Origin: Escherichia phage EF202P1
Sequence record: OP172796.1
Reading direction: 5' to 3' (one strand)
DNA: 64,000 nucleotides
Shown here: piece by piece, positions 445-11,964 of the stretch
Numbering within the stretch: the stretch's first letter is position 1
How the letters are laid out: every line of letters starts with the position of its first letter
The notes under the pieces: model-generated
What the model saw: the letters and a program-made list of their open reading frames with translations, nothing else
Database searches by the model: none
What the model was told of the DNA's origin: nothing
Translations under genes and position numbers: made by a program

Positions 445-842
445 GGCTCTTAAACAGACACAGCTTTGTAGTAAAGCGTAAAGTCTCTGAAGACGGTTAT
501 TATAATGATGATGGTGATTGGGTAGCTTCACAAGATATTGTAGAGGTTAACTGCAAAGGTAATATCCAGCCATACATTAAAGGTTCTGTAAAGAACGGTA
601 CACAGATTGCTTTACCGGAAGGTATTAGGCTAACCGATACAAGAATCCTATATACCACATATAAACTTAGAACTTCAGATGATGTAGAGTGGAATGAGTC
701 TGATATTGTTATGATTGATGGTCATGAGTATGAAGTATTTATGACTATGGATTGGTCACAGCAATTAGCCCATACGTCCCATTATGAATATATCATTATT
801 AGAAGGGATAAAATGAATGCAGTTAGAAACAGCAGAACTTGA
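441..842 (+). CDS. hypothetical structural-module protein
   Basis: ATGA stop/start overlap with upstream ORF, same strand as tail genes. Confidence 0.35.
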   Translation: MRLLNRHSFVVKRKVSEDGYYNDDGDWVASQDIVEVNCKGNIQPYIKGSVKNGTQIALPEGIRLTDTRILYTTYKLRTSDDVEWNESDIVMIDGHEYEVFMTMDWSQQLAHTSHYEYIIIRRDKMNAVRNSRT

Positions 843-1416
843 AAAAGGTCTAGTTAGAACCTTAGTGGATGTTATTGGTCACAGACTAGCTCGTGATAAG
901 AATAATAGACCAAATGTAATTAGAGCTTACCCTTCTGATAACTCAAATGACAAAGGTTTAAAACCTGACCAGCCATTTATTACCGTATATTGTCAAGATG
1001 CTGCAACACCTTATGGTTGGGTTCTTGATAAGTTTGTTGAGGATGATGTAGTTTGCTACAGAATTGCTTTTCAGATTCCAGTATTAATTACGGTGAATGG
1101 TAAAGGTGCTCACAGTATTATGCTTGAGCTTAAACAACGATTAGAGATGAGTTCAGTCAGAGATTTAATCCTTGAAGAAACAGGAGCTACAGTATTAGAC
1201 ACTGGAGCAATCCCTAATGATTACACTTATCTCAATACAGATTTCGAAAATTCTGCACCTCTTGTTGTAACTCTTGTAAAAAACTCAGTCCTGAAAGATG
1301 AACGTGGAAGTATTATCGAGCGTGTCATTGTTGATGGTGAGTTAGTTTATGAAGAAGGACAAGAGCCACCAGAATATATTATCCATCTAGATGTAGACTC
1401 CAAAGGGGTAAAATAA
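817..1416 (+). CDS. hypothetical protein (possible tail completion/neck protein)
   Basis: Position immediately 5' of tail sheath gene; stop abuts sheath start codon. Confidence 0.3.
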   Translation: MQLETAELEKGLVRTLVDVIGHRLARDKNNRPNVIRAYPSDNSNDKGLKPDQPFITVYCQDAATPYGWVLDKFVEDDVVCYRIAFQIPVLITVNGKGAHSIMLELKQRLEMSSVRDLILEETGATVLDTGAIPNDYTYLNTDFENSAPLVVTLVKNSVLKDERGSIIERVIVDGELVYEEGQEPPEYIIHLDVDSKGVK

Positions 1417-2769
1417 ATGTGGAATCCAATTGTTAATGTAGATATTACATTGAACACCGCAGGAACTACAAGAGAAGGTTTTGGTTTACCACTATTCTTA
1501 GCTTCAACAGATAACTTTGAAGAAAGAGTACGTGGCTACACTTCCTTAACTGAAGTTGCTGAAGATTTCGATGAGAATACTGCTGCATATAAGGCTGCTA
1601 AACAACTTTGGAGTCAGACTCCTAAAGTAACTCAGCTTTATATTGGTAGACGTGCTATGCAGTACACTGTATCAATTCCTGATGCCGTTACCGAAAGTAC
1701 AGACTACTCGATTACTGTAGCTGCTGGCGGTGGAATTTCTCAACCATACCAGTATACAGCGCAAGACTCAGACACTGCTGAAGTAGTGTTGCAACAGTTT
1801 AAAACACAGATTGAAGCTGACCCAACAATCAAAGATAAGGTTTCTGTGAACGTAACTGGTAGCAATGGTTCTGCCACAATGATTATCACTAAAGCTGGTG
1901 ACAATGATTTTGTGAAGGTAACCACTACAGCACAGACTGTATCTATTGCAAGCACAACTGCCGATACAGCATCAACTGCTCTGGCAGCCATTGAAGCTTA
2001 TTCTACTGACTGGTATTTCATTGCAGCAGAAGATAGAACTCAACAGTTTGTCCTAGCAATGGCTTCTGAGATTCAGGCTCGTAAGAAAATCTTCTTCACT
2101 GCTAACTCTGATGTATCAGCACTACAAGGTACAGAATTAAACAGTGCAAACGATGTTCCAGCACAGCTTGCTAAGAGTATGTATACTCGCACAGTTTGCT
2201 TGTGGCATCACACAGCAGCAGAAGACTATCCAGAGATGGCATACATTGCTTATGGTGCTCCATACGATGCAGGGTCAATTGCTTGGGGTAATGCTCAGTT
2301 GACTGGTGTAGCTGCTTCTCTACAGCCAGCTAATAAGAGACCTCTGACAAGTATTCAGAAGTCAGCTTTAGATGCACGTCACTGTAACTTTATTGACCTT
2401 GATGGTGGTGTTCCAGTGGTTCGTAGAGGGATTACTTCTGGTGGGGAATGGATTGATATCATCCGTGGCGTTGACTGGTTAGAATCAGACCTGAAAACTT
2501 CTCTGAGAGACTTGCTAATTAACCAGAAGGGTGGTAAGATTACTTATGATGATACTGGTATTACCCGTATTCGTCAAGTCATTGAAACCTCTCTACAAAG
2601 AGCAGTCAACAGAAACTTCCTGTCATCTTACACAGTTAATGTTCCTAAAGCCTCTCAAGTTGCTTTGGCAGACAAGAAAGCTCGTATCCTGAAAGACGTT
2701 ACCTTCGCAGGTATCTTAGCAGGGGCTATCTTGGATGTTGACTTGAAAGGTACAGTGGCTTACGAATAA
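1417..2769 (+). CDS. tail sheath protein
   Basis: 450-aa protein followed by 148-aa tube-sized ORF, chaperone pair and tape measure (canonical sheath-tube-chaperone-TMP order); AAAGGGG RBS. Confidence 0.6.
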   Translation: MWNPIVNVDITLNTAGTTREGFGLPLFLASTDNFEERVRGYTSLTEVAEDFDENTAAYKAAKQLWSQTPKVTQLYIGRRAMQYTVSIPDAVTESTDYSITVAAGGGISQPYQYTAQDSDTAEVVLQQFKTQIEADPTIKDKVSVNVTGSNGSATMIITKAGDNDFVKVTTTAQTVSIASTTADTASTALAAIEAYSTDWYFIAAEDRTQQFVLAMASEIQARKKIFFTANSDVSALQGTELNSANDVPAQLAKSMYTRTVCLWHHTAAEDYPEMAYIAYGAPYDAGSIAWGNAQLTGVAASLQPANKRPLTSIQKSALDARHCNFIDLDGGVPVVRRGITSGGEWIDIIRGVDWLESDLKTSLRDLLINQKGGKITYDDTGITRIRQVIETSLQRAVNRNFLSSYTVNVPKASQVALADKKARILKDVTFAGILAGAILDVDLKGTVAYE

Positions 2770-2784
2770 TAGAGGTAAATTGGA

Positions 2785-3231
2785 ATGGCTATGTATCAGC
2801 AATATTCCCCTAAAGACGTTGTGTGTAGCTGGAATGGTATTGCCATTGAAGGCTTTGCCCCAGACTCATTCTTACGTCTACAGAGAACATCACCACTTGT
2901 GACACCAGTTGTTGGTGCAGGTGGTCAAGTTGCTCTGACTAGAAATGCAGACAAGACAGGTACTATTGAGATTGAGCTAATGCAGACTTCTCTCTCTAAT
3001 CAGATGCTTTCTGCAATTCAAGCTAAACAAGACAATATGGAACTTGAAGAAGATATCTCTTCTAACTTCGTAATCTACGACCCATCAGGCTCTGTTCTGG
3101 CAACTGGTATCAATGCTTGGTTGCAGGAACTACCACAGATTGAACTTGGTCGTGACCAGAACTCTAAAACTTGGATTTTTGGTTGTGAGAAGCTAGACTA
3201 CACTTCTACAATTCCAGCGTCAAGTGTTTAA
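2785..3231 (+). CDS. tail tube protein
   Basis: 148 aa, between sheath and chaperone genes; strong terminator follows. Confidence 0.55.
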   Translation: MAMYQQYSPKDVVCSWNGIAIEGFAPDSFLRLQRTSPLVTPVVGAGGQVALTRNADKTGTIEIELMQTSLSNQMLSAIQAKQDNMELEEDISSNFVIYDPSGSVLATGINAWLQELPQIELGRDQNSKTWIFGCEKLDYTSTIPASSV

Positions 3232-3243
3232 TAAATCCTATAA

Positions 3244-3275
3244 GGGGGAGACTTTAAAAGGTCTTCCCCTTTTTT
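3244..3275 (+). terminator. intrinsic terminator after tail tube gene
   Basis: GGGGGAGAC-loop-GTCTTCCCC then TTTTTT. Confidence 0.7.
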
Positions 3276-3304
3276 GTTTCTTTTAAAAGTATTAAGGAAT
3301 CACA

Positions 3305-3703
3305 ATGAAAACAGAATCTAGAGTAATTAATGGTAAGAAAGTAAATATTGTTCTGCTTGGGGCAAGAGATGGTATTAAGATGTCTATGAAGTTGGGTAAA
3401 ATTGTTGTTCCAACTTTTGCACAGATGCTATCAAGTCTGACTGATAAAGATAAGAAAGAAGCTCCAATGGTTCCATTTAAAGAACTTGTTGAAGCTTGTT
3501 TTGACAGAATTGAAGAAATTAACCTTGAAGAAATGGCTACCCTATTATTTCAAGGGGCAACTGTTGATGACTTCCCACTTAATATTGATACATACTTCCA
3601 AGCAAACTATGGTGAATTTATTGATTACTTAGCATTTGCGCTGGAGGCAAATTTCGGAAGTTTTTTCGAAGCAAGCATTTTCAAAAGCCTAACTTCTCAG
3701 TAA
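3305..3703 (+). CDS. tail assembly chaperone (G-like)
   Basis: Small acidic protein directly upstream of tape measure; slippery T_TTT_TTC near 3' end. Confidence 0.55.
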   Translation: MKTESRVINGKKVNIVLLGARDGIKMSMKLGKIVVPTFAQMLSSLTDKDKKEAPMVPFKELVEACFDRIEEINLEEMATLLFQGATVDDFPLNIDTYFQANYGEFIDYLAFALEANFGSFFEASIFKSLTSQ

Positions 3704-3705
3704 AC

Positions 3706-3944
3706 ATGGGTAACACTCTACAGACACCACTAACTGATGCTGCTGTAGAGGCAACCTATGAAGAAGCAGACGAGATGAAATTTGTGCTTGCTATTTATGG
3801 TATGGAAGGGTGTAAAGAAACACTTGACCAACTCTTTGCTATGACATTCTCTGATTTATTATCATTGAGACAATTTCTTGAAATTCAGAGGTCGTATAAA
3901 GAGGAAATTGCTTACAACGAACTTAGAAGAGCAGGAAAAATGTA

Positions 3945-3945
<1 letters not shown>
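3706..3945 (+). CDS. tail assembly chaperone, -1 frame extension (GT-like)
   Basis: ORF in -1 frame relative to 3305..3703 with no stop between slippery site and this ORF; ends at tape measure start. Confidence 0.45.

Positions 3946-11964
<8,019 letters not shown>

What the first reader, a model, noticed from the sequence alone, without database searches (positions are those of the whole stretch)
3661..3945. Probable -1 programmed ribosomal frameshift in the tail assembly chaperone pair
ORF 3305..3703 contains the slippery heptamer T_TTT_TTC (3661..3667, zero-frame codons AGT TTT TTC) 12 codons before its stop. After a -1 slip the reading frame runs without a stop into ORF 3706..3945, which ends exactly at the tape-measure start. 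This is the conserved G/GT chaperone arrangement of long-tailed phages and would give a fusion of about 200 aa alongside the 132-aa short form.
Basis: partly seen in the sequence, partly recalled or inferred. Interest (0 to 1): 0.5.

Follow-up and report, generated by a model that had tools for sequence, protein, structure and literature searches.

The report
Tail chaperone -1 frameshift, Felix O1-like phage
This is the usual programmed -1 ribosomal frameshift that lets a long-tailed phage make a short and a long tail-assembly chaperone from one gene; it is real on comparative evidence but already annotated in sister phages, so it is ordinary.

Summary
The window is a Felix O1-like E. coli myophage (98.9% identical to vB_EcoM-LTH02). 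ORF 3305..3703 is a tail assembly chaperone (Pfam PF21822). It carries an in-phase T_TTT_TTC at 3661..3667. The -1 frame is open from 3625 to the stop at 3943..3945, which overlaps the tape-measure ATG by one base. The fusion would be 213 aa.

- The heptamer, as NNT TTT TTY, is invariant in about 97 related loci, down to 23% protein identity, including 65% G+C contigs.
- The -1 frame is always open for 69-124 codons after it.
- Many relatives have no start codon for the downstream ORF.
- The ATG at 3706 has no Shine-Dalgarno sequence.
- Synonymous variation falls to its minimum exactly in the overlap.

No conserved downstream RNA structure exists in this clade. An SD-like GGAGG lies 13 nt upstream and looks selected across the family, so it is a plausible stimulator.

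The finding is not new. The same junction is deposited for Salmonella phage Meda (same genus) and for Citrobacter phages Michonne and Maleficent, and three genome papers state the frameshift. I found no experimental proof for this group. Interest is low.

The parts
3305..3703 (+). Short tail assembly chaperone (G-like), 132 aa, made by standard translation
   Evidence: ORF. PF21822 Phage_TAC_15, E 1.2e-19, 71.5 bits against cutoff 22. phrog_1613 'tail assembly chaperone', E 7.9e-49. Its own SD AAGGA, -6.1 kcal/mol against the anti-SD.
3643..3647 (+). SD-like GGAGG (codons CTG GAG GCA), 13 nt 5' of the heptamer; candidate upstream stimulator (inferred)
   Evidence: Read from the sequence. GGAGG or GAGG is at this fixed position in 47 of 55 unique related sequences. 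The Glu codon is GAG in 24 of 28 clusters against 10.7 expected, P about 8e-8. SD stimulators of -1 frameshifting act 9-14 nt upstream (PMC5009743 section 36). No start codon lies 5-12 nt downstream of it, so it is not an initiation site.
3661..3667 (+). Slippery heptamer T_TTT_TTC, in phase (AGT TTT TTC); both tRNA-Phe re-pair to UUU UUU in the -1 frame
   Evidence: Invariant in 43 of the first 44 loci, the exception being phage CL1 with seven Ts, and as NNT TTT TTY in 53 further IMG/VR loci. U_UU.C is the second-best tetramer in E. coli, and all-pyrimidine heptamers are shift-prone (PMC4066793).
3667..3945 (+). -1 frame extension (T-like part), 92 codons plus stop, read after the slip. It includes the mechanically listed 'ORF 3706..3945'.
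   Evidence: Translation. phrog_4963 'tail assembly chaperone', E 2.8e-55. The -1 peptide RSKHFQKP, which begins right after the heptamer, is conserved in Kolesnikvirus and L037, which have no nearby start codon.
3661..3703 (+). Dual-coding overlap, translated in both frame 0 and frame -1
   Evidence: Only 12% of same-residue pairs use different codons here, against 47% elsewhere. These are the lowest 15-codon blocks of the whole 213-codon alignment (same dip). In Erwinia phages, 3650..3690 is the only stretch that blastn can still align, at 90% identity.
3706..3708 (+). ATG that makes the downstream ORF look like a separate gene; probably not used as a start
   Evidence: No SD: +0.7 kcal/mol, against -5.1 to -7.9 for 13 of the 14 neighbouring starts that could be scored; the 14th, the listed GTG at 10799, also scores +0.7. 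An ATG at this position occurs only in Felixounavirus and Suspvirus. It is displaced or absent in the other lineages.
3945..6176 (+). Tape measure protein (context); its start overlaps the -1 frame stop by one base (TAATG)
   Evidence: phrog_4036, 1534.9 bits, E reported as 0; PF20155 TMP_3. Sequence.
2785..3231 (+). Tail tube protein (context); presumed partner of the T part
   Evidence: phrog_280 'virion structural protein'; PF11681 KPP10_Orf10. It follows the sheath gene 1417..2769 (phrog_205). The tube assignment rests on position and is inferred.
3242..3281 (+). Intrinsic terminator between the tube gene and the chaperone gene (context)
   Evidence: 13-bp stem followed by a T tract. Annotated as a terminator in Salmonella phage Meda.

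Best explanation
Most ribosomes translating the chaperone gene from 3305 stop at 3703 and make the 132-aa short form.

A minority slip back one base. This happens when tRNA-Phe occupies the P site on UUU (3662-3664) and the A site on UUC (3665-3667). Both tRNAs re-pair with UUU UUU (3661-3666). Reading then resumes at CGA (3667) in the -1 frame and ends at TAA 3943-3945, giving a 213-aa fusion with the junction ...ANFGSFF|RSKHFQ...

By analogy with lambda G/GT, the shared N-terminal part coats the tape measure protein. The -1-encoded C-terminal part recruits the tube protein. The slip rate fixes the ratio of the two forms.

The site has no 3' stem-loop in this clade. The GGAGG 13 nt upstream probably pairs with 16S rRNA and raises the slip rate.

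Shown here: the sequence anatomy, the family assignment, selection on the heptamer, the overlap, and the missing initiation signals. Inferred: that the slip occurs, its rate, the SD effect and the binding partners.
For: - Anatomy.
- Chaperone family and synteny (sheath, tube, chaperone, tape measure).
- In-phase T_TTT_TTC invariant in 43 of 44 loci of Felixounavirus, Suspvirus, Mooglevirus, Kolesnikvirus, Yersinia P778, Pectobacterium Wc4 and two Vequintavirinae, down to 29% identity. The -1 frame is open from the heptamer to the tape measure. The 44th, phage CL1, has seven Ts and a single fused ORF.
- In 53 further IMG/VR loci, down to 23% identity and up to 65% G+C, the codons are always NNT TTT TTY. 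The scan that found them required the peptide F-F, not particular codons.
- The -1 frame opens 3 nt (P778) or 9 nt (SUSP) before the heptamer.
- No usable start codon for the downstream ORF in Kolesnikvirus, L037, Wc4 or the Vequintavirinae.
- ATG 3706 has no SD.
- Synonymous variation is 12% in the overlap against 47% elsewhere.
- The fusion built with this slip is identical to deposited frameshift products AXY86324.1 (Meda) and AKU44019.1/AYR00813.1 (Michonne/Maleficent). Joined CDS are annotated.
- Papers stating the frameshift: PMC4319497, PMC4591319, PMC5543628.
- Motif shiftiness in E. coli: PMC4066793.
- SD-like element.
- Some G+C-rich relatives have a stable hairpin starting 7-8 nt after the same heptamer.
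Against: - No protein-level evidence exists for this phage group in the literature I could search.
- There is no conserved 3' stimulator. The RNAalifold consensus is -1.0 kcal/mol with no covariation. The 45 nt downstream fold no better than shuffles, z -0.8 to +1.2.
- The SD-like element is absent in Kolesnikvirus, P778, L037 and A5-4, so it is not essential.
- The conserved F-F could partly reflect protein constraint, although codon choice cannot be explained that way.
- The lineages compared are related, so the P-values are approximate.
Confidence: 0.9

Rival explanations
1. Two independent genes. The downstream 79-aa ORF is translated only from its own ATG at 3706, by re-initiation after the stop at 3701-3703, and the T run is incidental.
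For: An ATG lies 3 nt after the ORF1 stop, so termination-reinitiation is conceivable. Most Felixounavirus records annotate two separate CDS.
Against: There is no SD before 3706. The ATG is not conserved: it is moved in Mooglevirus, only a TTG in P778, and absent in Kolesnikvirus, L037, Wc4 and the Vequintavirinae, where the first in-frame start lies deep inside the conserved domain. This reading cannot explain the invariant NNT TTT TTY codon choice in about 97 loci, or the synonymous-site minimum that starts at the heptamer rather than at the ATG.
Confidence: 0.03
2. Transcriptional slippage. RNA polymerase adds one U in the T6 run, and ordinary translation of the U7 mRNA gives the same fusion.
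For: The site is a homopolymer run. One extra T in the DNA does give the fused ORF, as in phage CL1, which has seven Ts and a single 213-aa CDS. A few distant relatives have 7-8 Ts.
Against: Efficient bacterial slippage is described for runs of about 9 A or T (PMC5009743); here the run is 6. Position 7 is C in 45 of 53 distant loci and in all close ones, although the synonymous TTT would lengthen the run. The run is always extended on the 5' side by a T-ending Ser or Cys codon, as tandem tRNA re-pairing requires. The upstream SD-like bias and the 3' hairpins at 7-8 nt in G+C-rich relatives are ribosome-level stimulators.
Confidence: 0.05
3. The slip occurs elsewhere in the overlap, for example at the second in-phase heptamer A_AAT_TTC (3649..3655).
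For: A_AAT_TTC is in phase and lies inside the open -1 window 3625..3945.
Against: It is present only in the window, in L011 and in SUSP-type sequences. Other Felixounavirus sequences have AAC there. In P778 and SUSP the -1 frame is closed at that position. Re-pairing of tRNA-Asn on AAA is non-cognate.
Confidence: 0.02

Closest known systems
Annotated frameshift products of Salmonella phage Meda (AXY86324.1, Felixounavirus) and Citrobacter phages Moogle, Michonne, Mijalis and Maleficent (Mooglevirus)
   Same: Same gene, same heptamer, same junction. My fusion built at T_TTT_TTC is residue-for-residue the deposited protein for Meda and for Michonne/Maleficent. The window's fusion differs from Meda's at 3 residues. 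[quoted passage not shown]
   Different: Nothing of substance. The window's exact 213-aa sequence is not itself in the protein collection. Most sister records still list two separate CDS.
Bacteriophage lambda G/GT (Levin 1993; Xu, Hendrix and Duda 2004, 2013, 2014; as summarised in PMC5009743)
   Same: Two overlapping ORFs just upstream of the tape measure gene, a low-level -1 slip near the end of the first, and a fusion that shares the N-terminal chaperone part. No elaborate 3' structure is evident.
   Different: Lambda is a siphovirus and its shift motif differs (G_GGA_AAG with tRNA-Lys, from my own knowledge; the review passage I read mentions only the tRNA-Lys). I ran no sequence comparison with lambda G or T; the family here is Pfam PF21822. 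The partner here would be the tube of a contractile tail. The rate is unknown.
Phage P2 E/E+E' (myovirus G/GT equivalent)
   Same: Contractile-tail phage with the order sheath, tube, chaperone pair, tape measure, and a -1 frameshift. P2-type frameshifting is 2-3 fold more efficient than lambda's (PMC5009743).
   Different: Unrelated sequence family. The P2 motif is recalled from memory as T_TTT_TTG, not checked here.
E. coli dnaX and IS911-type -1 frameshift cassettes
   Same: An internal SD-like sequence 9-14 nt 5' of the heptamer acts as a stimulator. Here GGAGG lies 13 nt upstream.
   Different: Those cassettes also use a 3' stem-loop or pseudoknot and A_AAA_AAG, and reach up to 50%. This site has no 3' structure and uses a Phe-Phe motif. 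The SD effect here is inferred only.

Membership tests
Tail assembly chaperone G/GT pair with programmed -1 frameshift (Xu, Hendrix and Duda 2004) | Located between the major tail or tube gene and the tape measure gene | tested here: met
   Sheath 1417..2769, tube 2785..3231, pair 3305..3945, tape measure 3945..6176.
Tail assembly chaperone G/GT pair with programmed -1 frameshift (Xu, Hendrix and Duda 2004) | Second ORF in the -1 frame, overlapping the end of the first | tested here: met
   The -1 frame is open 3625..3945 and overlaps ORF1 by 79 nt.
Tail assembly chaperone G/GT pair with programmed -1 frameshift (Xu, Hendrix and Duda 2004) | In-phase X_XXY_YYZ slippery heptamer inside the overlap, conserved in relatives | tested here: met
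   T_TTT_TTC at 3661..3667. Invariant in 43 of 44 loci (phage CL1 has seven Ts), and as NNT TTT TTY in 53 more.
Tail assembly chaperone G/GT pair with programmed -1 frameshift (Xu, Hendrix and Duda 2004) | Downstream ORF lacks its own conserved initiation signals | tested here: met
   No SD at 3706. No conserved start codon across lineages.
Tail assembly chaperone G/GT pair with programmed -1 frameshift (Xu, Hendrix and Duda 2004) | Both the short form and the fusion are made, at a set ratio, and both are needed for tail assembly | not testable with these tools
   Needs protein detection and genetics. No such data were found for Felix O1-like phages.
Pfam PF21822 Phage_TAC_15 | Score above the curated gathering threshold | tested here: met
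   71.5 bits against 22, residues 9-124 on profile positions 1-124 of 127.
Transcriptional slippage site | Long homopolymer run (about 9 A or T in bacteria) | tested here: not met
   The run is 6 T followed by C. The criterion is from PMC5009743.
dnaX/IS-type stimulated -1 frameshift cassette | SD-like sequence 9-14 nt 5' of the heptamer | tested here: met
   GGAGG at 3643-3647 with 13 nt spacing. Family-wide GAG bias, P about 8e-8. Function not tested.
dnaX/IS-type stimulated -1 frameshift cassette | Stable stem-loop or pseudoknot 5-9 nt 3' of the heptamer | tested here: not met
   No Rfam family reaches its threshold.

The most novel reading that the evidence does not exclude
In the Felix O1 clade the slip may depend on the upstream SD-like GGAGG alone, with no 3' structure, while G+C-rich members of the same chaperone family use a 3' hairpin with the same T_TTT_TTY motif. 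That would mean one protein family has exchanged frameshift stimulators around a fixed slip site. The conserved N-F/Y-G/S-S-F-F peptide would then be shaped by the RNA signal rather than by protein function.
Probability: 0.3. Interest if true: 0.35.

Novelty: already known. Interest (0 to 1): 0.15.

Why it matters
For this window it matters mainly for annotation. Positions 3305..3945 should be two products of one gene, the short form and a joined -1 fusion of 213 aa. They should not be a chaperone plus an independent 79-aa 'hypothetical protein', which is how most Felixounavirus records list them.

The family-wide data add a clean example of selection acting on codon choice. AGT/TCT TTT TTY is kept even at 65% G+C. 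The data also suggest a testable upstream SD-like stimulator. Neither changes what is known about how phage tails are built.

Tried and rejected
- Downstream stimulatory structure. The single-sequence fold of 3668..3760 gives only a 4-bp GAAG/CUUC helix next to the site, plus a hairpin at 3705..3760 that is 38 nt away. RNAalifold on nine lineages gives -1.0 kcal/mol with no covariation. The 45-nt downstream windows are no more stable than shuffles. Rejected for this clade.
- A fold that includes the site (3630..3730) pairs the U run itself and has z +0.64. Not meaningful.
- Rfam scan of 3200..4100 at E up to 10: nothing near any gathering score.
- PDB sequence search with the fusion: no relative, best E 0.62.
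- Second heptamer A_AAT_TTC at 3649: not conserved.
- A_AAG_GGG at 6958, whose -1 frame runs into gene 6973..7314: it lies within the SD of that gene (AAAAAGGGGA, -7.8 kcal/mol), so it is not a frameshift candidate.
- Phage-encoded tRNA-Phe as a modifier: no tRNA genes in the window.
- The literature searches for experimental proof in Felix O1-like phages returned only annotation-level statements.
- I did not run the large protein searches or structure prediction. They would not bear on the frameshift question.

Full report
**What the window is.** Positions 2700..6300 are 98.9% identical to Escherichia phage vB_EcoM-LTH02. They match 261 phage records, almost all Felixounavirus (Felix O1-like myophages of Escherichia, Salmonella and Shigella). 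The local gene order is:
- a neck terminator-like gene, 817..1416;
- tail sheath, 1417..2769 (phrog_205, DUF3383);
- tube, 2785..3231 (phrog_280);
- an intrinsic terminator, 3242..3271;
- the two ORFs of the finding;
- tape measure, 3945..6176 (phrog_4036, PF20155);
- baseplate genes.

**The observation.** It holds in every detail.
- ORF1 (3305..3703, 132 aa) has zero-frame codons AGT TTT TTC at 3659..3667. T_TTT_TTC at 3661..3667 is therefore in the X_XXY_YYZ phase.
- The -1 frame is open from 3625 to the TAA at 3943..3945, which shares one base with the tape-measure ATG.
- A slip at the heptamer gives a 213-aa protein with the junction ...ANFGSFF|RSKHFQKPNFSVNMGNT...
- ORF1 is a tail assembly chaperone: PF21822 at 71.5 bits against a cutoff of 22, and phrog_1613. 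The downstream ORF matches phrog_4963, also labelled tail assembly chaperone.

**Is it more than chance?**
- TTTTTTC occurs once on the + strand of the window and 11 times on the other strand. Runs of six T occur 12 times against 41.
- The 64 in-phase heptamers in long ORFs were checked for open -1 frames. Only those in ORF1 and one other are followed by more than 40 open -1 codons. The other is A_AAG_GGG at 6958, which lies within the SD of the next gene.
- Phe-Phe is written TTT-TTC in 2 of 20 cases in the window. From codon usage, the chance of NNT TTT TTC given Ser-Phe-Phe is 0.13.

**Comparative evidence.** I collected 44 loci from annotated phages and IMG/VR. They cover Felixounavirus, Suspvirus, Mooglevirus, Kolesnikvirus (Erwinia), Yersinia phage P778, Pectobacterium phage Wc4, an unclassified contig (L037), and two Vequintavirinae (A5-4 and Av-05, at 29-30% protein identity).
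- In 43 of the 44 loci the in-phase T_TTT_TTC is present and the -1 frame is open from it to just before the tape measure gene. The exception is phage CL1, described at the end of this report.
- In P778 the -1 frame opens 3 nt before the heptamer, and in SUSP-type phages 9 nt before. This leaves no other place for the shift.
- A second scan used an alignment of the diverse chaperones. It required the peptide ...S/C-F-F but not particular codons, and it gave 53 more loci down to 23% identity, some at 62-65% G+C. The codons are AGT or TCT, then TTT, then TTC (45 loci) or TTT (8 loci). There is no exception, and 69-116 open -1 codons follow.
- Keeping these A/T-rich codons in G+C-rich genomes is direct evidence of selection on the RNA sequence.

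**The downstream ORF is not a free-standing gene.**
- The ATG at 3706 has no complementarity to the anti-SD (+0.7 kcal/mol). Thirteen of the fourteen neighbouring listed starts that could be scored have -5.1 to -7.9 kcal/mol; the fourteenth, the GTG listed at 10799, also scores +0.7 and is probably not a true start.
- An ATG at that position exists only in Felixounavirus and Suspvirus. In Mooglevirus it is displaced. P778 has only a TTG. In Kolesnikvirus, L037, Wc4 and the Vequintavirinae the first in-frame start lies far inside the conserved C-terminal domain.
- The -1 peptide RSKHFQKP, which begins immediately after the heptamer, is conserved in those lineages.
- phiEa21-4 and Wc4 do not even annotate the second ORF.

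**Overlap signature.**
- Among eight lineage representatives, 12% of same-residue pairs use different codons in fusion codons 119-133, against 47% elsewhere. The eight lowest 15-codon blocks of the 213-codon alignment start at codons 113-122. The 39-sequence set shows the same dip.
- In Erwinia phages, the only DNA that blastn can still align to 3305..3945 is 3650..3690, at 90% identity.

**Stimulators.** There is no conserved 3' structure in this clade and no Rfam match.

Upstream, GGAGG at 3643..3647 lies 13 nt before the heptamer. SD-like stimulators of -1 frameshifting act at 9-14 nt (PMC5009743 section 36).
- The element comes from the codons Leu-Glu-Ala/Val. GGAGG or GAGG is at this fixed place in 47 of 55 unique sequences.
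- The Glu codon is GAG in 24 of 28 clusters (below about 70% identity), where local usage predicts 10.7. The Poisson-binomial P is about 8e-8. This is approximate, because the lineages are related.
- The element is missing in Kolesnikvirus, P778, L037 and A5-4. It is therefore an enhancer at most.
- Several G+C-rich distant relatives instead carry a 9-bp hairpin that starts 7-8 nt after the same heptamer, at -18 to -27 kcal/mol with z -2.2 to -4.9. That is the classical arrangement.

**Mechanism.** In E. coli, U_UU.C is the second most shift-prone tetramer after A_AA.G. UUN codons and all-pyrimidine heptamers are frameshift-prone (PMC4066793). The most likely event is tandem re-pairing of two tRNA-Phe from UUU UUC to U UUU UU.

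The function is inferred by analogy with lambda. There G and GT are needed at about 30:1, G binds the tape measure, T binds the major tail protein, and neither is in the virion (PMC5009743).

Transcriptional slippage is a weak rival. The run is six T, the seventh base is kept as C, and the associated signals are ribosomal.

**Novelty.**
- Salmonella phage Meda (Felixounavirus) carries a joined CDS labelled 'Tape measure chaperone frameshift product'. Citrobacter phage Maleficent has one too.
- The fusions I built for Meda and for Michonne/Maleficent with this slip are exactly the deposited proteins AXY86324.1 and AKU44019.1/AYR00813.1.
- Genome papers on Moogle, Michonne ('to the -1 reading frame') and Mijalis state the frameshift.
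- Most other records, including Felix O1 itself, still list two CDS.
- I found no experimental confirmation for this group.

The finding is therefore a correct re-discovery of a known, annotated feature.

**One variant record.** Phage CL1 has seven Ts at the site and a single 213-aa CDS. This is either a homopolymer sequencing error or a real variant. It does show that one extra base yields exactly the predicted fusion.

Noticed in passing
window 3242..3281: Strong intrinsic terminator (13-bp stem plus T tract) between the tube gene and the chaperone gene. It probably lowers expression of the chaperones and tape measure relative to sheath and tube. It is annotated as a terminator in phage Meda.
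   Followed up: partly
L003 957..963 (Escherichia phage CL1, OK040806.1): Seven Ts instead of six at the slip site, so the record has one fused 213-aa 'tape measure chaperone' CDS and no short form. This is a homopolymer sequencing error or a natural fusion-only variant.
   Followed up: partly
L104, L110, L114-L122 and L109, first 45 nt after the heptamer: G+C-rich environmental relatives of the same chaperone family carry a stable 9-bp hairpin starting 7-8 nt after T_TTT_TTC (-18 to -27 kcal/mol, z -2.2 to -4.9). The Felix O1 clade has none. The stimulator appears to differ between lineages around a fixed slip site.
   Followed up: partly
window 3643..3647 and the homologous position in related loci: Family-wide preference for GAG over GAA at the Glu codon five codons before the slip (24 of 28 clusters against 10.7 expected). 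This creates a GAGG or GGAGG SD-like element at constant spacing.
   Followed up: yes
window 6958..6964: In-phase A_AAG_GGG three codons before the stop of ORF 6176..6973, with the -1 frame running into gene 6973..7314. It lies within the Shine-Dalgarno sequence of that gene, so it is not a recoding site.
   Followed up: yes
window 3649..3655: A second in-phase heptamer, A_AAT_TTC, inside the open -1 window. It is present in only a few relatives (AAC elsewhere) and is unlikely to matter.
   Followed up: yes
window 3705..3760: A stable hairpin (the 93-nt fold has z -2.7) whose outer stem includes the ATG at 3706. It is not in the nine-lineage consensus structure. It could further hinder independent initiation in this genus.
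   Followed up: partly
whole window, both strands: Runs of six T are strongly asymmetric (12 on +, 41 on -). Phe-Phe is mostly written TTC-TTT or TTC-TTC, which is consistent with avoidance of slippery U runs in coding sequence. No tRNA genes lie in the 64-kb window.
   Followed up: no
GU169904.1 74360..75000 (hit H70): The 147-kb record 'Staphylococcus phage SA1' contains a 97% identical copy of this Felix O1-like chaperone region. A Staphylococcus hyicus assembly also holds the 132-aa protein. These are probably mixed or contaminated records.
   Followed up: no
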